Positions 2,914-24,788 of a stretch of 42,338 nucleotides of DNA are shown in pieces. This DNA comes from a virus. The DNA lies in the UHGV virus genome UHGV-0127092, one strand, 5' to 3'. Both the position numbers and the translations under genes were made by a program. The notes beneath the pieces are model-generated. The model searched no databases, was not told where the DNA came from, and saw nothing but the letters and a program-made list of their open reading frames with translations. Every line of letters starts with the position of its first letter. Position 1 is the stretch's first letter.

Positions 2914-3588
2914 TCAATCATAGGCCGCTGTATTTATGGCGGTTAATGAAATGCCAGTATTCGTTCCCCCTCCAGGTGAACCTGCCCCAGTGGAGGTCCC
3001 CCCTGCGTTTATCCTCGTATTGGCCCCGTCAAACCTGCATGAAGAATAAGCATTTATCGTGTAGATAGTCGGAGGCTGGGTTGAATTATTCACAATGATG
3101 GTCTGACCCAACTGAGCAGGTGCAACGGCCCATGACCCGCTCAGCGTCTGGTCAATATTTATCCCGCCGTTTGCACCAGGCGTGCCAACCGTCTGCAGGT
3201 CTGATAGCACACGGGACTCATTAGTTAACACAAGCTTTCCGCTCGCATCCCATATTGCCAAACCCCATTTCGGTAATATCTGCGGGAATATGGCAAAAAC
3301 GTACGCCGTTAAAGTGAAACTTTGGTTGTAGGGATTAACACCAGCAACATACACATTACCGCCGTTCCTGTAAGACATAACCGGAGTGGGCTGTGCTGTA
3401 TTGGTGGTTTTGATAAAAACCATCACTGGGTAATCAGCGTTTAAAGCGATATTTTGAGCAACCTGCTGAGAACTGCCATTCGCGGATGAATTGAAGGTAT
3501 ACTTCCCGTAAAGACAGAAAGGCGTTGATTGTGGCGTTACAAAGGGATTCCCGTTATCCATTAATATCATCGCGCCAAATTCGGCCAT
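2914..3588 (-). CDS. Hypothetical tail-associated protein (Gly/Thr/Asn-rich)
   Basis: 224-aa ORF translationally coupled (1-nt overlap) to the upstream 100-aa ORF, downstream of J. Confidence 0.5.
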   Translation of the reverse strand: MAEFGAMILMDNGNPFVTPQSTPFCLYGKYTFNSSANGSSQQVAQNIALNADYPVMVFIKTTNTAQPTPVMSYRNGGNVYVAGVNPYNQSFTLTAYVFAIFPQILPKWGLAIWDASGKLVLTNESRVLSDLQTVGTPGANGGINIDQTLSGSWAVAPAQLGQTIIVNNSTQPPTIYTINAYSSCRFDGANTRINAGGTSTGAGSPGGGTNTGISLTAINTAAYD

Positions 3589-3890
3589 TATGCTTTCTCC
3601 ATGAAAACGACCACCTCACATTTAGAGGCCGGGTAATTACCCAGGCCCACAGAAGAGGCTGCGGTTACGGTTATTGTGTTCCCTGACGCGACAATGCTCC
3701 TCCCTACGCTGTTACCTCCTTCATCAAGTGAGAGCGCAAAACCGACCTTCATTCCTGAGGGTACAGTGAAAGACCAGCTGCCGGAGTTTTGTCCGGCGGC
3801 AAGTTGTATACGTCCAACAACGGAAACGGGCTTGATTCCGTAGTTGTTGGGGTTTCCCGAAGCATCCCAGGTCTGTATTCCATAAGCCAT
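3588..3890 (-). CDS. Hypothetical tail-associated protein
   Basis: 100-aa ORF starting 2 nt after the J stop codon; tightly coupled to J. Confidence 0.5.
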   Translation of the reverse strand: MAYGIQTWDASGNPNNYGIKPVSVVGRIQLAAGQNSGSWSFTVPSGMKVGFALSLDEGGNSVGRSIVASGNTITVTAASSVGLGNYPASKCEVVVFMEKA

Positions 3891-3891
3891 A

Positions 3892-6800
3892 TCAGAACAC
3901 CCCCGTTAATCGGCCAACCTGCACTCTCAGAACGTTGTTGCCATCCTTGACGCTGATTGTCTGGTTGGTCTGCTTCATGGCTCCCTCCCCAGCTGTCGAA
4001 CCGTAGTTCTCAAACGTCCCGGACTTATCCAGTTTCCAGCCAACAGAGCCGGCAACATAATTGTTCGACTGGATGTAATTGCCAATTTTTGCATTGCTTA
4101 TGGTCCCGTCGCCAATGACTGTATCCCTGATAATGGCCTGGCCATTCTGGATAACGAACGGCAGTGTTACAGTCCCGCCGACCATAGTAGTCACGGCGAA
4201 ACGGTCTGCCAGGAAGATTACCTGTGACTGCATGCCGGAGGGTGTATTTTGAACCCCAATACCCATCCCGGCAGCGTAATACTGCCCGTTACTGGACACC
4301 CCCACCTTGATGTTATACATCGCGCTGAGGTTACCGTTTACATCTGCTATAGCCTGTGCGTTGACGTTTATCGCTGCACTGTTTTCGCCTGATTTAACAG
4401 TCAGAGTGTTGATTTTTGTTGCCGAAGCCTGGGTGAAATCAGCAAGAGTTTCTGTCAGGTCCGTTGAGTTAGAGATATTGCCACCAGCTTCTGCATCCAG
4501 TGTGACCAGCGCGCGTGCGACCGCCTGGCTGGTATCGGCAATCGTAGTATCCACTCTGTCTATACTGGCACTGTTCCCGGCGTTCGTGGCGGTCTGCGAG
4601 CGACGGCTTACCACCTGCGCCAGCCCATTCTGAATAATCGCGATTGCCGAGTTCTTCACTCCTCCCGTCATGCCGTCCATCGACACAGAAATCTCGTCGA
4701 TCTTCACTTCGGCCTGAGCCAGCCCGTCAGCGTTCTCCAGGATGTCTTTCGCTTGCTGCTCCAGTTCGTCGTTGGCCTGTTTGATATCGTTAGCCATGCC
4801 AGCAATTTTTTCATTGCTGTCCACAGCGTTCTCGATCAGGTCTTTGAACGTATCGGAGCCTTTCATGTCCTCCAGGATCACATCTGTGATGTCGGAAACA
4901 TCGATGCTGGCCTGTCCTCGCACCCATTCTGTGTACCCTGATTCGTTGCCGCTGCGGTCCACCAGCTGAGCGCGGTACCAGAAAATCTGCCCAGCCTTGA
5001 GGCCCATCTGCTGATATTTGCGCTGCGGATAAGGCACATCGGCCAGCAGCATTGCATCATCTTCGCTACCGGTCAGGCTGTACTGAATTTCCGTCTTCAG
5101 CGTGTCGTCGGTATTCGCCGGGAATCCCCAGTTCAGCTCGATGCCGAAATCCACATTTTCAGAAGCGATGAAGCCAACCGGCTTCGGTGGATTGCCCACT
5201 TTACCCGTAAGATTTACTTCTGGTGATGTCGCCCACACTGATGAAACGTCGCTGGCGTTCACCGCCCTGACGCGGACCAGATAGCGACCCGAGTAGATAC
5301 CCTGCACTTCAAAGCCGAGAGAAGACGTTCGTGGCACACTAATCCAGTTGCCGCTGTCACGCCGCCATTCCGCCTCGTACGCAACTGCACCCTGAACAGC
5401 ATCCCAGGCAACGCGCATGGTGGTAATCGCAATGTTCTGGTTAACCGTAGAGTAACTGTCTACGACGATATTTCCTGGGGGAGCCTGAACCCCTGGCGGA
5501 ATGACACTGACTGGCCGCTCGTCCAGTCTTGCGCCGGTATCAACAGCGGAATAGATATCAGGGTTGTAAGTCGTCCCGGTGACCTCGAAAGTACCGTCGT
5601 TGTTGTCCCGCGTTCCCGTAACACGGAAAAGCGCTATAAACAGATCGTCAGAGTCCACACCCCAGTTACATTCAGCCTCCGGCGTTTCGCTGTATGGTGT
5701 GGTGACAGTGACTGTGTTTCCGTTAACGGCCTGGACGGTTCTGGCCTGAGCTGTGCCTGACGGAAGATTCAAAAACAGCCTGTTACCGGCTTTCACATCA
5801 GCAGCGCGATCGAGGGTTATGTTGCGGCCGTTAACCGCACTCACCCTGCCGCCGATAGTTCTTCCGGCCAGCTCGTTAGCAGCCACGCCGATCACCTCAC
5901 CAACAGGGGGGACGTCCATGCCTGTGCTGAAGGTCACCACCTCGCCGATACCGTTGGTAAGCAGCGCCCAGCGCCCCCGCCGGTTTGCCTCTGACTGCCT
6001 GGTGCAGCCGATCGCAGTCATTTCGAGCTGACGATAATCGAAGCGCATGGCCAGATCGCTATCGTAAACAGGCTCAGGCGTATCTTTGTAGTGGTTGGCA
6101 GGGTCTGACCAGTTCACCAGCGCGGCAGTGTTTCGGGTGGTTTCACTCGGGTCCGCAAAGGTAAATTTACCCTCAACTACGCTGGCGTGGTTATAGATAT
6201 GCCACACATCGCGGGGCATATCAGCCAGGACATACATCTTATTGTCACCCCAGTACGTCATGCCGCGAAATATACCCGCCAGATCACGAAGTACGGTCCA
6301 GGCGTCATTACGGTCCTGGATATAAACGTTGCAACGAAAACGCGGCTCCGTCCCGCTGCCGCCCTTGCCGTCTGGTACCAGCTGATCGCAATACTGGGCG
6401 ATGCGATAAAGTTCCCACTTGTCTATCTGAGTCGCATCGATTCTTTGCCCCAGCCCGAAACGCTCGTTCAGAATGATGTCGTAATAAATCCAGGCTGGGT
6501 TATCCGTCCATGCCCATTTAAACACACCTTCCCATGTACCAGAGTAAGTGCGGGTTTCAGGATCGTAGGTATCAGGTACACGGATGATTCTCCCCTTCGG
6601 ATTGCACACAACCTGAGGAATGCCATTAGGGAACTGCTTTGCGTCAAACTCTACATACAGCAGCGCTGTGTTAACGTAGCGAAGTTTGGCGTCAATAATT
6701 TCAGTTACAGCTACAACGCGCATGGTGTCCACGATATTCACGCTCGTGGAATCCGGCGTGATTCTGCGAACCCGTAACTGCCAGCCAGTCGAGGATTTTG

Positions 6801-21936: not shown

Positions 21937-22287
21937 TCATTTGAAGCGTTCACGCCCTGTTTTCGAGCGGTGGCAAGGCCAGCACAGGCTTTCAAGGTTC
22001 GAATCATCATCGGTACCCCCATGAGCCTTAGCCTTGATATGGTCAACGGTTGTGGCCGCGACAGCGCGTCCAGTACGCAGGCAGTTCTGACACAGATGAT
22101 TATCACGCTTCAGGATGCGCGCGCGCTTGATATCCCACTTGCCGCCGTAACCACGCTCATGGCGGCTCTTACCCTGCTGGTGCTGTTGCCAGCCCTCATT
22201 TCGATGCTGCTCACAGTAGCCTGAACGGTCCGTAGTCGTACCGGGACAACCTCTCTTGCGACATGCGCGAGGGATTAACGCTGGCAT
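21937..22287 (-). CDS. HNH endonuclease
   Basis: DHIKAKAHGGTDDDSNLESLCWPCH HNH motif; adjacent to the terminase genes. Confidence 0.85.
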   Translation of the reverse strand: MPALIPRACRKRGCPGTTTDRSGYCEQHRNEGWQQHQQGKSRHERGYGGKWDIKRARILKRDNHLCQNCLRTGRAVAATTVDHIKAKAHGGTDDDSNLESLCWPCHRSKTGRERFK

Positions 22288-22290
22288 GGT

Positions 22291-22467
22291 TCAATCCTCA
22301 CGGAACCGTAGAGCGATTGAGTTCAGCATCTGCTGTAAGTCTTGGGCTTTCTCCATCGCCCATGCCGCTGGCTCCGGTCGTTGACTTTGCACAGGTGGCG
22401 GCGACTTGCAGGCGCTTACGCCCAGCAGAAACATCAGCACGGAGACTTTCGATAGTCGCGTTAGCAT
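22291..22467 (-). CDS. Outer-membrane lipoprotein spanin Rz1 (o-spanin), overlapping Rz in +1 frame
   Basis: Signal peptide with lipobox VSAC followed by Pro-rich [12 protein letters not shown]; start chosen at MLTRLSK. Confidence 0.6.
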
Positions 22468-22696
22468 CAGCAAGCTCCTTTGTGTATTTGGCATCCAGTG
22501 CAGCGACATCACGCTGGCGGGTCTGCATGTCTTTAATGGTGGCGGTCGCCAGGAGGAGTTTCTCAGTGGCCTTATCGCGCTGGTCTCTGTAAGTGATGGC
22601 GTTGTCGCGGTAGTGGTTCACGAAGAAAGCCAGTGCGCCGATTAACGCCAGCACCAGCAACTGCAGCCAGTAACGCTTAACCAGTGCGCTAATCAT
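22298..22696 (-). CDS. Inner-membrane spanin Rz (i-spanin)
   Basis: N-terminal transmembrane helix, coiled-coil periplasmic domain; 4-nt overlap with the lysozyme gene. Confidence 0.7.
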
Positions 22697-23133
22697 GACA
22701 GGAACAGAGCTCGCTCTGCCTCCCGCCGACGTGTCAGCCCATTCAGCACCTTCCCACCAGCTTTATTCCAGCGCAGGAACTCATCGGCTGCACCAGCGTA
22801 ATCTCCGGCGTTGAGTTTTCGCAGGAGAGTCGATGTCGACAATGACCGCGCACCGAGGTTATACGTGAACGACACCAGGGCATCGAATTGCCCCTGAGTC
22901 AGGCCAACTTTAACCAGTCGTGACACGTCACTTTCGTAACTGACCATTCCTGTCTTCAGCAGGCGTTCTGCCGTTTCCTGCTTAATTGTCATCCCGGCAC
23001 GGATTGGTTTCCCGTCGACGGGCTGAGTCCAGCCATAACCGATCGTCCAAACGCCGACGCTGTCCTGATAGGCAGTGAGCTTGCAACCTTCGAACTCTTT
23101 GATCAGGGCAATGCCTTTATCACTGGTTTGCAT
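22693..23133 (-). CDS. Endolysin, lysozyme (glycoside hydrolase family 24)
   Basis: [24 protein letters not shown] motif with catalytic Glu; between holin and Rz. Confidence 0.85.
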
Positions 23134-23437
23134 TCTTCATCCCCGTCAAGCGTTCCCAGAAATAGGTCAGAGCCACTGAACCCATCGCCCCGCTAATGCC
23201 GGACGTGACAAGGATCATGTGAAAACTCAACCCACTCTCCACGCTTATCAACCCGCCAATCAAACCGGTAAAGCCGGAGACAGCGATCTGTGCCAGCGCG
23301 TTTATCCAGCTCCATGTCGCTTTATTCTGCTTTACGTCGATCAGGTAGCGAACTAAACCGCCCCAGCATGCAATGCCGAGCAGGACTAACCAGGACAGGC
23401 CTACAATTTTGTGGTCGTCATTCATACGCTTTGCCAT
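23120..23437 (-). CDS. Holin with possible dual start (MAKRM)
   Basis: Hydrophobic helices; ATG at about 23437 preceded by GGAGGTG; second in-frame Met four codons downstream. Track start 23506 is probably too long. Confidence 0.7.
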   Translation of the reverse strand: MAKRMNDDHKIVGLSWLVLLGIACWGGLVRYLIDVKQNKATWSWINALAQIAVSGFTGLIGGLISVESGLSFHMILVTSGISGAMGSVALTYFWERLTGMKNANQ

Positions 23438-23510
23438 ATCACCTCCGAAGGAACGGGGTGCTGTTTGTGTAGAGTGGAAGGATGCCAGGAAACAACGACC
23501 GGACATCGCA

Positions 23511-23539
23511 AATAAAAAAGCCCCGCACGATGGCGAGGC
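23511..23539 (-). terminator. tR'-like intrinsic terminator between Q and holin
   Basis: Minus-strand RNA GCCUCGC-CAUCGU-GCGGGGC followed by U6. Confidence 0.55.
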
Positions 23540-23593
23540 TCTTAATTCTTTGTCGACCTACGAAGCTATGGCGACGATATCATATTTACATGA

Positions 23594-23622
23594 AATATAT
23601 GCTATTTAATTGACTTTTGCAA
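23594..23622 (-). promoter_or_regulatory. Candidate late promoter (pR'-like): TTGCAA-17-TATATT
   Basis: -35 at 23617-23622, -10 at 23594-23599 on minus strand, overlapping the 3' end of the Q gene, about 50-70 nt upstream of the terminator. Confidence 0.45.
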
Positions 23623-24295
23623 TACCATGCCGCGAAAAAGTCGTTTTTTGTTGTGAACGTGATCGAGAAACCGTCAGCAAAGCTTGTCTGTCCAATCCTT
23701 GGAAAATTTCCCCCATAGCCCGCCAGTAGCCAGAATAGTTATGGCTCCAGTTATCGGGTTTAATTCCGATCATAGAAGCTGGCGCATAACGTAAGCAGCC
23801 TTCCCTGCCTGAAATATCCGCTTTTTCATTCTGAGCCGCCAGCCAGATGAGCTGACGCAGGCGATCTACCGTTTTCTTTGCAATGCGCACACCTGCAAAT
23901 TGTTGGTTGAATTGCTCCCACGCCCAGCGGACAATCGTCTCCTGGAGCTCCCAGCAGATATTGTCGCTGTAGGTCCAGAGCAACCATGCTCTCTGATGGT
24001 CTTCCAGAGACAGGACAGCGCGGCGCCATGATGCGGTGCCGAACTCTACCGGACTCACCAGCGCGATTGACGAGCCCTTGGCGCGTGACTGACTGCCGCT
24101 CATCGGCGGGCCGTCGGGGTTAACCATGCGCTTTTTCTGCGCGTCATAGACTTTCTTCCGCCCCCGGCTGCGCGCCGTCGCGGTGAATTGCGCGTTCTCG
24201 GCGAAAGCGACCAGCTGCCCTTTCGTCGCCCCGCTGAGGTCTGCGGTCGCCACAATGAGCTGCTGACGTACGTATTCCAGTTGCTGACTGTTCAT
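23606..24295 (-). CDS. Putative late-gene antiterminator Q
   Basis: 229-aa ORF directly upstream of the promoter-terminator-holin arrangement and downstream of the nin genes. Assigned by position; family not confirmed. Confidence 0.55.
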   Translation of the reverse strand: MNSQQLEYVRQQLIVATADLSGATKGQLVAFAENAQFTATARSRGRKKVYDAQKKRMVNPDGPPMSGSQSRAKGSSIALVSPVEFGTASWRRAVLSLEDHQRAWLLWTYSDNICWELQETIVRWAWEQFNQQFAGVRIAKKTVDRLRQLIWLAAQNEKADISGREGCLRYAPASMIGIKPDNWSHNYSGYWRAMGEIFQGLDRQALLTVSRSRSQQKTTFSRHGIAKVN

Positions 24296-24404: not shown

Positions 24405-24788
24405 TCATTCATCCACCCTCTCGTTCTGCCAGAGAGGAAGTGGTGACTTATCCCCGGCGCGGCGAATGCGTGACTTGGCGTTCTTCTCAATCTGAATGAG
24501 CTTCTCGATATTCTGACGGCGCTGCTTTTCTTCCCGGCGGAGATATTTCACGCTTTCCCAGTAGCGAGACTCCTGGTCGCAAAGTGTCATCAGGTAGTCG
24601 AATGGATCGATTAGCGTTTCGCATTTCCGGCAGCGTAGCGTTCGCTCTTTTCCGTTTATCGATACAGCAGAGTGCAGACACATGACCTTTTGGCCTTCGC
24701 GCTGAATGACCAGCCCATCCTGCAGGTCGTTATTCTTTGACGGGAAAGCGACAACCTTGCCCAGTTCAATTTCGGTTTCTGTGCTCAT
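24405..24788 (-). CDS. Hypothetical protein (Cys-containing, basic C-terminus)
   Basis: 127-aa ORF, 4-nt overlap with ninG. Confidence 0.5.
   Translation of the reverse strand: MSTETEIELGKVVAFPSKNNDLQDGLVIQREGQKVMCLHSAVSINGKERTLRCRKCETLIDPFDYLMTLCDQESRYWESVKYLRREEKQRRQNIEKLIQIEKNAKSRIRRAGDKSPLPLWQNERVDE

What the first reader, a model, noticed from the sequence alone, without database searches (positions are those of the whole stretch)
23425..23622. Late-gene control region: promoter overlapping the Q stop, short leader terminator, and holin with MAKRM dual-start motif
A TTGCAA-17-TATATT promoter on the minus strand overlaps the 3' end of the putative Q gene and is followed within about 50-70 nt by a strong intrinsic terminator, matching the pR'/tR' logic of Q-dependent antitermination. 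The holin ORF behind it starts MAKRM, giving two in-frame Met codons separated by Lys-Arg, as in the lambda S107/S105 antiholin/holin pair.
Basis: partly seen in the sequence, partly recalled or inferred. Interest (0 to 1): 0.45.

Follow-up and report, generated by a model that had tools for sequence, protein, structure and literature searches.

The report
Phage-82-type late gene switch
This is the ordinary late-gene on-switch of a lambda-like prophage, of the well-studied phage 82 type: an always-on promoter, a built-in pause site, a stop signal that the phage Q protein overrides, and a lysis-timer gene with two start codons. The only extra is that its short leader RNA belongs to a small-RNA family (IsrJ) first described in Salmonella.

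Summary

**Promoter and Q.** The minus strand carries TTGCAA-17-TATATT (23622-23594), with the Q stop codon inside the spacer. Q belongs to the phage 82 family (PF06323) and is 54.6% identical to 82 Q over its full length. The phage 82 Q gene itself ends with the same TTGCAA.

A sigma70-dependent pause element, TGaTATCGT at +6..+14, followed by CGCC, sits in the same register as in 82 pR'. It predicts a pause near +25.

**Terminator and leader RNA.** An 11-bp hairpin plus T-run (23543-23510) would end a leader RNA of about 75 nt. That RNA matches Rfam isrJ over the full model (65 bits; gathering score 37).

**Comparative support.**
- 84 of 86 related loci keep the elements in register.
- 83 of 85 keep a terminator, with many different stems.

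**Holin.** The holin (PF16083, three hydrophobic segments) starts MAKRM.
- All 60 distinct homologous start regions keep two in-frame starts.
- Each lineage has a hairpin over the ribosome-binding site, like the lambda S sdi element.

**Verdict.** New member of a known kind. Function rests on homology and has not been measured here.

The parts
23606..24295 (-). Q antiterminator gene, phage 82 family (229 aa)
   Evidence: PF06323 at E 2.7e-71 over the full profile. phrog_304 'anti-termination protein Q-like'. 54.6% identical to phage 82 Q over residues 1-229. PF06323 is the Q82 family according to PMC9388147. No solved structure matches it.
23617..23622 (-). -35 hexamer TTGCAA of the late promoter pR', inside the last Q codons
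   Evidence: Seen. TTGCAA is present in 55 of 56 distinct related sequences. The same hexamer sits at the end of the phage 82 and phage 434 Q genes.
23600..23616 (-). 17-nt promoter spacer AAAGTCAATTAAATAGC(A); holds the Q stop codon TAA (23606-23608) and, by position, the presumed Q-binding element
   Evidence: In 82 pR' the QBE lies between -35 and -10, within -31..+30 (PMC4914094). The spacer is strongly conserved. Q binding here is inferred, not tested.
23594..23599 (-). -10 hexamer TATATT
   Evidence: Seen. Relatives have TACATT, CATATT, TATATT or TATACT at the same spacing.
23587..23587 (-). Predicted transcription start (+1, A)
   Evidence: It lies 7 nt after the -10 hexamer. This placement puts the -10-like pause hexamer at +9..+14, as described for 82 pR' (PMC5001585; alignment). 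The Rfam isrJ model starts 3 nt upstream, at 23590.
23570..23582 (-). Sigma70-dependent pause element: TG (+6,+7), -10-like TATCGT (+9..+14), G+C-rich CGCC (+15..+18). The predicted pause is at about +25 (T at 23563).
   Evidence: It is in register with the 82 pR' features (extended -10-like element, +15-17 GCC, U at +25). TG and TA are kept in 84 of 86 loci, and positions 1, 2, 3 and 6 of the hexamer are conserved. Pausing itself was not tested.
23552..23575 (-). Leader hairpin HP1 (+13..+36), GUCGcC...GuCGAC
   Evidence: It is part of the Rfam isrJ consensus structure and of the minimum-energy fold. Other leader types form a hairpin at the same place from unrelated sequences. Its role is unknown.
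23510..23543 (-). Intrinsic terminator tR': 11-bp stem, 6-nt loop, TTTTTTATTT
   Evidence: Seen. 83 of 85 related loci have a hairpin plus T-run ending at +48..+93 (one at +259), in about 39 stem variants, several of them unrelated.
23517..23590 (-). Short leader RNA, a member of Rfam RF01393 isrJ
   Evidence: 65.1 bits against a gathering score of 37, E 2e-11, model positions 1-75 of 75. The Gifsy-1 isrJ lies behind the same promoter.
23440..23460 (-). sdi-like hairpin CACCCCG-ttcctt-CGGaGGTG, whose 3' arm is the Shine-Dalgarno sequence GGAGG (23442-23446)
   Evidence: It appears in the minimum-energy folds. L025 has two compensatory pairs (CGC/GCG). Other lineages use CCGAT/ATCGG or CCCC/GGGG stems at the same site. 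Lambda S has TCCCC-ttatt-GGGGG 6 nt before its ATG AAG ATG. The energy is not better than that of shuffles (z -0.6 to -0.8).
23120..23437 (-). Holin gene. The Met1 form is 105 aa (ATG 23435-23437) and is the presumed antiholin. The Met5 form is 101 aa (ATG 23423-23425) and is the presumed holin.
   Evidence: PF16083 at E 6e-21 and phrog_785 'holin'. Three hydrophobic segments at about 11-33, 44-66 and 70-93; N-terminal net charge +1 versus -1. The dual start is kept in 60 of 60 distinct homologous start regions. PGAP annotates the 101-aa form.
22291..23133 (-). Rest of the lysis cassette: endolysin (22693-23133), Rz (22298-22696) and embedded Rz1 (within 22291-22512)
   Evidence: PF00959, PF03245 and PF06085. 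The HNH, TerS and TerL genes follow on the same strand.

Best explanation
This is the late-gene control region of a lambda-like prophage, of the phage 82 type. The nearest full match is an E. coli chromosome.

**Transcription.**
1. Host sigma70 RNA polymerase starts at the promoter TTGCAA-17-TATATT, probably all the time, including in the lysogen.
2. Sigma70 stays on the polymerase and re-binds the promoter-like sequence TGaTATCGT at +6..+14. This halts the enzyme near +25.
3. Without Q, the polymerase moves on and stops at the hairpin plus U-run. It releases an RNA of about 75 nt with two hairpins, of the IsrJ family.
4. When Q has been made from the early operon, it binds the DNA between -35 and -10 and the paused polymerase. 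It then travels with the polymerase, which ignores this and later terminators and transcribes the roughly 23-kb lysis and morphogenesis operon.

**Translation of the first late gene.**
- The holin mRNA is read from two AUGs four codons apart.
- The longer product (MAKRM...) carries two extra positive charges that hold the first membrane helix in. It acts as an inhibitor.
- The shorter product (MNDDHK...) is the active holin.
- A hairpin that covers the ribosome-binding site sets the ratio of the two, and so the lysis time.

**Shown here:** the sequence elements, their homology to phage 82, and their conservation.
**Inferred:** start site, pausing, Q binding, readthrough, use of both starts, and the opposing functions of the two products.
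For: **Q and promoter.**
- Q is PF06323, the Q82 family, and is homologous to 82 Q over its full length.
- The 82 and 434 Q genes end with the same TTGCAA.
- E. coli 82-like phages align in register, and their sequence fits the published 82 pR' numbering: -10-like element with extended -10, GCC at +15-17, U at +25.

**Conservation.**
- The -35, TG and TAxxxT elements are kept in 84 of 86 loci.
- The non-coding promoter plus leader is 91% identical (median), against 77% for the adjacent Q coding sequence, in 64 distinct loci.
- 83 of 85 loci have a terminator, built from many different stems.
- No other promoter-like site lies between the terminator and the holin.

**Leader RNA.**
- It is a full-length isrJ match.
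- IsrJ is a 74-nt RNA seen by primer extension and northern blot in Salmonella (PMC2330248; PMC4825925).
- The Gifsy-1 isrJ sits directly behind TTGCAAAACTGGATTAA-...-TATATT.
- Short late-promoter RNAs are known for phage 82 (PMC7547250).

**Holin.**
- Family, hydropathy and N-terminal charge all fit.
- The dual start is kept in 60 of 60 distinct start regions, with synonymous changes in the Ala and Lys codons.
- Hairpins over the ribosome-binding site recur with different stems and match the layout of lambda sdi.
- The lambda mechanism is described in PMC3359269 and PMC9636201.
Against: - Nothing was measured in this phage.
- The promoter and terminator pattern counts are not above the shuffle expectation on their own.
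- The exact +1 is inferred; the Rfam isrJ model begins 3 nt earlier.
- The window has CGC at +15-17 where phage 82 has GCC, and A at +5 where relatives have C.
- The start-region hairpin is no more stable than shuffled sequence (z -0.6 to -0.8). My test of ribosome-binding-site pairing gave 0.61 against 0.59 for controls.
- AUG2 lies 15-16 nt from the GGAGG core, which is long for efficient initiation.
- The holin is not detectably similar to lambda S by BLASTP (E 0.042), so the antiholin role is argued by analogy.
- In Salmonella, IsrJ levels depended on HilA, which a purely constitutive promoter does not explain.
Confidence: 0.85

Rival explanations
1. The promoter, leader and terminator form a stand-alone small-RNA gene (IsrJ) whose main job is to regulate host genes in trans through Hfq. 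Late genes would be driven mainly by another promoter, or by readthrough from the early operon.
For: - The leader is a full-length isrJ match.
- In Salmonella, IsrJ is treated as an independent sRNA with a virulence phenotype.
- The leader sequence beyond the pause site, and a 5' hairpin, are conserved.
- StxS shows that a pR' leader can be a working sRNA.
Against: - The two roles are not exclusive.
- The RNA sits exactly where every Q82-type phage has pR'/tR', behind a Q gene and in front of the lysis genes.
- No other promoter-like site lies between the terminator and the holin.
- The pause element, which an sRNA has no need for, is the best conserved part.
Confidence: 0.1
2. Only one holin start is used. 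MAKRM is simply the N-terminus of a single product (or Met5 is the only start, as PGAP annotates), and lysis timing is set without an antiholin isoform.
For: - PGAP calls the 101-aa form, while other pipelines call the 105-aa form.
- The ribosome-binding site is very close to AUG1 (3-4 nt) and far from AUG2 (15-16 nt).
- The hairpin energy is not significant.
- Variants without a strong basic residue exist: MAERM, and (L)AIHM with a TTG start.
Against: - Both in-frame starts are kept in 60 of 60 distinct start regions across several genera, while the following residues vary: NDDHK, QDKES, PDKDP.
- The extension nearly always carries K or R.
- The Serratia-type members read MKMPDK behind a CCCC/GGGG hairpin, almost the same layout as lambda S.
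Confidence: 0.25
3. The hexamers are a chance match, and the hairpin merely ends the early (Q) transcript.
For: The pattern scans are not enriched over shuffles. A terminator after Q would also stop unmodified early transcription.
Against: - The elements are conserved position by position in more than 80 loci whose Q proteins are only 54-72% identical.
- The region is homologous to the experimentally defined 82 pR'.
- IsrJ has its own mapped transcript in Salmonella.
Confidence: 0.03

Closest known systems
Phage 82 late control region (Q82, pR'82 with its QBE and sigma70-dependent pause at +25, and tR'82)
   Same: - Same Q family (PF06323; 54.6% identity).
- The -35 TTGCAA lies inside the end of the Q gene.
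- 17-nt spacer.
- Extended -10-like pause element at +6..+14, followed by a G+C-rich triplet.
- T at +25.
- Short terminated leader RNA.
- Late genes lie downstream.
   Different: - The -10-like hexamer is TATCGT followed by CGC. E. coli 82-like phages have TATTTT followed by GCC, and phage 434 has TATGTT.
- The spacer, and hence the presumed QBE, differs at several positions.
- The leader body and terminator stem are of the IsrJ type.
IsrJ sRNA of Salmonella Gifsy-1 (Rfam RF01393)
   Same: Full-length covariance-model match. Same promoter hexamers and spacing, same initial transcribed sequence, and the same two-hairpin shape. IsrJ is 74 nt; the RNA here would be about 75 nt.
   Different: - In Gifsy-1 the promoter is separated from the Q-like gene antQ by an inserted c4/isrK/antirepressor module.
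- Only a 17-nt remnant of an 82-type Q gene end remains in front of the Gifsy-1 promoter.
- The papers I read describe IsrJ as an island sRNA linked to HilA and invasion, not as a late-promoter leader.
- No expression or Hfq data exist for this prophage.
Lambda pR' / 6S RNA / tR' and lambda Q
   Same: Same logic: constitutive promoter, sigma70-dependent promoter-proximal pause, a QBE in the promoter, and a terminated short RNA that Q overrides.
   Different: - The lambda Q protein family (PF03589) is unrelated in sequence.
- The lambda pause is at +16/17, with the -10-like element at +1..+6.
- The lambda leader is 194 nt.
- In lambda about 400 nt separate tR' from S; here about 75 nt separate tR' from the holin.
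Lambda S dual-start holin/antiholin (S107/S105) with the sdi stem-loop
   Same: - Class I layout with three hydrophobic segments.
- Two in-frame Met codons separated by basic residue(s).
- The shorter form has an acidic N-terminus.
- A C-rich/G-rich hairpin lies immediately upstream and includes the ribosome-binding site.
   Different: - Different Pfam family: PF16083 (LydA type), not the lambda S family, with no significant BLASTP similarity.
- The extension is four residues (MAKR, +2 charge) rather than two (MK, +1).
- The short C-terminal tail carries few charges.
- Use of both starts is untested.
StxS sRNA from the pR'/tR' of Shiga-toxin phages
   Same: It is a short RNA made by termination at tR' during lysogeny. 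It binds Hfq and acts in trans, which sets a precedent for a second role for this leader.
   Different: The leader sequence is different, and the RNA is processed by RNase E from a longer precursor. No target or Hfq evidence exists for the present RNA.

Membership tests
Q82-type late control region | Q protein of Pfam family PF06323, homologous to phage 82 Q | tested here: met
   E 2.7e-71 over profile positions 1-216 of 220. 54.6% identity over 229 aa to X92588 Q. The family assignment follows PMC9388147.
Q82-type late control region | Sigma70-type promoter at the 3' end of Q, on the same strand | tested here: met
   TTGCAA-17-TATATT. The layout is the same in phages 82 and 434 and is conserved in 55 of 56 distinct sequences.
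Q82-type late control region | -10-like pause element with extended -10 in the initial transcribed region, followed by a G+C-rich segment | tested here: met
   TGaTATCGT CGCC lies at +6..+18, in register with the 82 description. Only the sequence was tested.
Q82-type late control region | Sigma70-dependent pause at about +25, and Q binding to a QBE between -35 and -10 | not testable with these tools
   This needs in vitro transcription and footprinting. The spacer is conserved, but it also encodes the Q C-terminus and stop codon.
Q82-type late control region | Intrinsic terminator shortly downstream, followed by late genes on the same strand | tested here: met
   The hairpin plus T-run lies at +45..+78. 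83 of 85 relatives have one. Holin, endolysin, Rz/Rz1 and terminase follow.
Q82-type late control region | Q-dependent readthrough of the terminator | not testable with these tools
   This requires a reporter assay or in vitro transcription.
Rfam RF01393 isrJ | Covariance-model score at or above the curated gathering score, over the whole model | tested here: met
   65.1 bits against 37, model positions 1-75 of 75.
Rfam RF01393 isrJ | Expressed as a stable RNA of about 74 nt that binds Hfq | not testable with these tools
   This was shown only for Salmonella IsrJ (PMC2330248).
Dual-start class I holin (lambda S type of regulation) | Small membrane protein with three transmembrane segments at the head of a lysis cassette | tested here: met
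   PF16083 and phrog_785. Kyte-Doolittle hydropathy peaks at 11-33, 44-66 and 70-93. Endolysin and Rz/Rz1 follow.
Dual-start class I holin (lambda S type of regulation) | Two in-frame start codons separated by a few codons that include a basic residue, conserved among homologues | tested here: met
   MAKRM here. 60 of 60 distinct start regions keep two in-frame starts, and nearly all have K or R between them.
Dual-start class I holin (lambda S type of regulation) | RNA stem-loop (sdi) at the ribosome-binding site that partitions initiation | tested here: inconclusive
   A hairpin is present in every lineage, with different stems and two compensatory pairs in L025. The layout matches lambda. 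The folding energy is not better than that of shuffles.
Dual-start class I holin (lambda S type of regulation) | Both products made, with opposing holin and antiholin activity | not testable with these tools
   This needs toeprinting, immunoblots and start-codon mutants.
Lambda S protein family (sequence homology) | Significant sequence similarity to lambda S | tested here: not met
   BLASTP gave E 0.042 over 34 residues. Pfam assigns the protein to PF16083, not the lambda S family.

The most novel reading that the evidence does not exclude
The pR' leader of about 75 nt is an IsrJ-family RNA. That would make IsrJ, treated in the Salmonella papers I could read as a stand-alone island sRNA, the terminated leader of a phage-82-type late promoter. 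In this E. coli prophage the RNA would be made constitutively in lysogens and could regulate host genes through Hfq, as StxS does. The 5' hairpin, which is maintained by different sequences in different leader types, would be part of that second function, or of pause escape or Q loading.
Probability: 0.3. Interest if true: 0.5.

Novelty: new member of a known kind. Interest (0 to 1): 0.25.

Why it matters
For annotation, the region can be labelled with confidence. The labels are: Q82-type antiterminator, pR' with pause element, tR', IsrJ-family leader RNA, and a dual-start holin whose true first start is four codons upstream of the PGAP call.

The broader point is modest. The Rfam isrJ family appears to be one subtype of Q82-type late-promoter leaders. 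This ties a Salmonella 'virulence sRNA' to a standard phage switch and suggests that many enterobacterial lysogens make such RNAs.

The set of about 90 aligned natural variants of the 82-type pause element and QBE region could also help work on the one Q family that still lacks a structure.

Tried and rejected
- **Start-region hairpin energy.** I compared it with shuffles (z -0.6 and -0.8). I also compared the pairing probability of the ribosome-binding site with controls in which the upstream 28 nt were shuffled (0.61 against 0.59). Both tests were uninformative, because any C-rich upstream stretch pairs with GGAGG. The sdi-like claim therefore rests on comparison only.
- **CII-type TTGY-N6-TTGY site (paQ).** The 434 record annotates such a site on the opposite strand over the -35. 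The window has only 3 matches, all far away, against 9.3 expected, so I dropped the idea.
- **Long holin ORF starting at 23506 (MSGRC..., 128 aa).** I rejected it. Its ATG follows the terminator T-run directly and has no ribosome-binding site. The equivalent upstream extensions in homologues are unrelated to one another.
- **Solved structures for Q.** None were found.
- **Full-text search for the leader sequence.** No hits. The supplement with the 82 pR' template sequences is not held, so the 82 numbering was transferred through 434 and 82-like E. coli phages.
- **Exact-match search of genome contigs for the leader.** No hits.
- **BLASTP of the holin against lambda S.** Not significant.
- **Rfam on other Q82-type leader types.** These do not reach the isrJ threshold, so isrJ covers only one subtype.

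Full report
**What is in the sequence**

All features lie on the minus strand.
- An ORF of 229 aa (24295-23606) ends ...GGT ATT GCA AAA GTC AAT TAA.
- TTGCAA (23622-23617) lies inside its last codons. A 17-nt spacer contains the stop codon, and TATATT (23599-23594) follows.
- A hairpin, AAGAGCCTCGC-CATCGT-GCGGGGCTTTT (23543-23516), is followed by more T's up to 23510.
- An ORF then begins ATG GCA AAG CGT ATG (23437-23423), directly preceded by GGAGGTGAT.
- The consensus scan finds this promoter (9/12) and this terminator, and no other promoter-like site on that strand between Q and the holin.
- The counts themselves are not above the shuffle expectation: 2 promoter-like sites against 1.7 expected, and 2 terminator-like sites against 4.2 expected. 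The pattern match alone therefore proves nothing.

**Gene identities**
- The upstream ORF is a Q antiterminator of Pfam family PF06323 (E 2.7e-71, full profile).
- The downstream ORF is a PF16083 'LydA-type' holin.
- It is followed by a PF00959 endolysin, Rz with embedded Rz1, an HNH endonuclease and the terminase genes.
- NinB and NinG precede Q.
- The window is a whole lambda-like prophage. Its late operon runs on the minus strand from here to the left end.
- The closest full match to the Q-holin region is an E. coli chromosome, at 99.8% identity.

**Which Q system**
- PF06323 is the phage 82 family, one of three unrelated Q families (PMC9388147).
- The window Q is 54.6% identical to phage 82 Q over all 229 residues, and 52% identical to phage 434 Q. 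No solved structure matches it.
- The phage 82 Q record ends ...AATATTGCAAAACTGGATTAA, and phage 434 continues TTGCAAAACTGGATTAAAAGCCA-TATACT. A promoter whose -35 hexamer sits inside the last Q codons is therefore the normal 82-type layout and not a peculiarity of this phage.

For 82 pR' the literature describes four features (PMC5001585):
- a -10-like pause-inducing sequence with an extended -10 motif;
- a G+C-rich 'discriminator' GCC at +15-17;
- an A+T-rich stretch;
- a pause at +25/26, with U at +25.

The QBE is described as lying between -35 and -10, within -31..+30 (PMC4914094).

E. coli 82-like phages read TATATT-TCATGC-AAATCTGATATTTTGCCGATTTTGT. This fits the published numbering if +1 is the A located 7 nt after the -10 hexamer.

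In the same register the window reads AAATATGATATCGTCGCCATAGCTTCG. That gives:
- +1 at 23587;
- TG at +6/+7;
- TATCGT at +9..+14 (23579-23574);
- CGCC at +15..+18;
- T at +24 and +25 (23564, 23563).

**Comparative test**
- I fetched 80 viral loci (Q 67-100% identical) and 17 genomic loci from Enterobacter, Citrobacter, Lelliottia, Atlantibacter and Franconibacter, plus phage records.
- In 84 of 86 loci the TG and TA of the pause element are in register. The -35 hexamer is TTGCAA in 55 of 56 distinct sequences.
- The -10-like hexamer varies only at its tolerant positions: TATCGT, TATGCT, TATTGT, TATAGT, TATTTT, TATGTT.
- In 64 distinct loci with this leader type, the non-coding stretch from -35 to +46 is 91% identical to the window (median). 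The adjacent Q coding sequence is 77% identical.
- 83 of 85 loci have a hairpin plus T-run ending between +48 and +93 (one at +259). These come in about 39 stem variants, several of them unrelated in sequence.
- Downstream of the terminator the sequences diverge completely. Many relatives carry tRNA genes or other cargo there. The window has none and reaches the holin after about 75 nt.

**The leader RNA is a known RNA family**
- An Rfam scan gives a full-length match of 23590-23517 to RF01393 isrJ: 65.1 bits against a gathering score of 37, E 2e-11.
- IsrJ was found in Salmonella Typhimurium as a 74-nt RNA in the Gifsy-1 prophage. It was detected by primer extension, and its levels were lower in a hilA mutant. 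Its deletion reduced invasion and effector translocation (PMC2330248).
- In Gifsy-1 the Q-like gene antQ is followed by a c4-a1b1/isrK/C4/antirepressor module.
- Immediately after the antirepressor stop codon comes TTGCAAAACTGGATTAA-AACGGC-TATATT-TTATGT-AAATCTGATATCGTCGCC... This is a remnant of an 82-type Q gene end, then the promoter, then isrJ.
- IsrJ is therefore the terminated leader of a Q82-type late promoter.
- I found no such statement in the papers I could read. The StxS paper cites IsrK and the short late RNAs of lambda, 21, phi80, 82 and P22, but does not mention IsrJ. I cannot exclude that the link is made elsewhere.
- The isrJ model recognises only this leader subtype. Other Q82-type leaders do not reach its threshold.

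**Leader structure**
- The leader folds into a single-stranded 5' end, a hairpin HP1 (+13..+36), an A-rich linker and the terminator hairpin.
- In the other long leader types a hairpin forms at the same position from different sequences: AUGCUGCC/GGCGGCAU, UUUUGCC/GGCAAAA and UGCCA/UGGCA. In each case the 5' arm lies over the pause element.
- The short 434-type leaders lack HP1.
- I have no tested explanation for HP1.

**The holin start**
- The protein has three hydrophobic segments, at about 11-33, 44-66 and 70-93.
- The Met1 form begins MAKRMNDDHK (net charge +1). The Met5 form begins MNDDHK (net charge -1). Lambda S107 and S105 have 0 and -1.
- Among 120 cluster representatives the N-termini read MAKRM, MKRM, MKM, MAKHM, MAKNM, MATRM and similar. 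Many are annotated from the second Met. PGAP calls the 101-aa form in the E. coli match.
- I examined 178 homologous start regions at the DNA level, of which 60 are distinct. All 60 keep two in-frame starts 2-4 codons apart, and nearly all have K or R between them. The Ala and Lys codons change synonymously, and the residues after the second Met differ between lineages.
- Each lineage also has a hairpin whose 3' arm is the ribosome-binding site:
  - CACCCCG-ttcctt-CGGaGGTG here, with CGC/GCG in L025 (two compensatory pairs);
  - CCGAT-cttcc-ATCGG in a second lineage;
  - CCCC-gtaatt-GGGG in front of ATG AAA ATG in Serratia-type members.
- Lambda S has TCCCC-ttatt-GGGGG-taagac-ATG AAG ATG. This is the sdi element that sets the S107:S105 ratio (PMC3359269; PMC9636201).
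- The predicted hairpin is not more stable than shuffled sequence, so this point rests on comparison only.
- By sequence the protein is not a lambda S homologue.

**Verdict**

The element is a phage-82-type late switch: Q82-family antiterminator, pR' with QBE position and sigma70-dependent pause element, tR', and an IsrJ-family leader. It is followed by a dual-start LydA-type holin with an sdi-like hairpin.

Every functional step is inferred from homology and conservation. That covers the start site, the pause, Q loading, readthrough, and the use and opposing roles of the two holin starts.

It is a new member of a known kind. The small added value is the link between the Rfam isrJ family and Q82-type late-promoter leaders, together with the set of natural variants of the 82-type pause region.

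Noticed in passing
window 23507-23520; L264 2281-2396: The closest E. coli match (strain 1218KP, 99.8%) has about 101 extra nt between tR' and the holin. The extra stretch ends in a second hairpin plus T-run and is flanked by the same 14-nt repeat, CTTTTTTATTTGCG. The window has one copy of the repeat, so it looks like a deletion between direct repeats (or an insertion in the other genome). Several viral and genomic loci carry the longer form with two tandem terminators.
   Followed up: partly
L265 (Gifsy-1) 3278-4221: In Gifsy-1 a P1 immI-like module (c4-a1b1, isrK, C4 RNA, antirepressor anrP) sits between antQ and the late promoter. Right after the anrP stop codon lies a 17-nt remnant, TTGCAAAACTGGATTAA, identical to the end of the phage 82 Q gene. 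It is followed by TATATT and isrJ. IsrJ is thus the pR' leader, displaced from Q by an inserted module.
   Followed up: yes
window 23552-23575; leaders of L006, L083, L084: A 5' hairpin in the leader RNA overlaps the pause element with its 5' arm. It is formed by unrelated sequences in different Q82-type leader types and is absent from the short 434-type leaders. Its function is unknown.
   Followed up: partly
window 24405-24788 (-): A 127-aa ORF lies between NinG and Q. It has no Pfam match and hits phrog_1621, a family of unknown function. It contains Cys pairs (C..C and CRKC) that suggest a zinc ribbon. The E. coli relative has Lar and a small ORF at this position instead.
   Followed up: no
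L005, L013, L057, L067, L084, L085, L250, L254, L265, downstream of tR': Many relatives carry one to three tRNA genes or other cargo between tR' and the lysis genes, as Shiga-toxin phages do. The window has no tRNA gene at all.
   Followed up: partly
window 23120-23506 (-); proteins P0003, P0010, P0011, P0065, P0066, P0089: Public annotations of this holin disagree on the start. Forms of 101 aa (Met5, PGAP) and 105 aa (Met1) both occur, along with spurious forms of 142-179 aa that run back through the terminator region.
   Followed up: yes
window 21937-22287 (-): An HNH endonuclease gene lies directly upstream of the small and large terminase genes.
   Followed up: no
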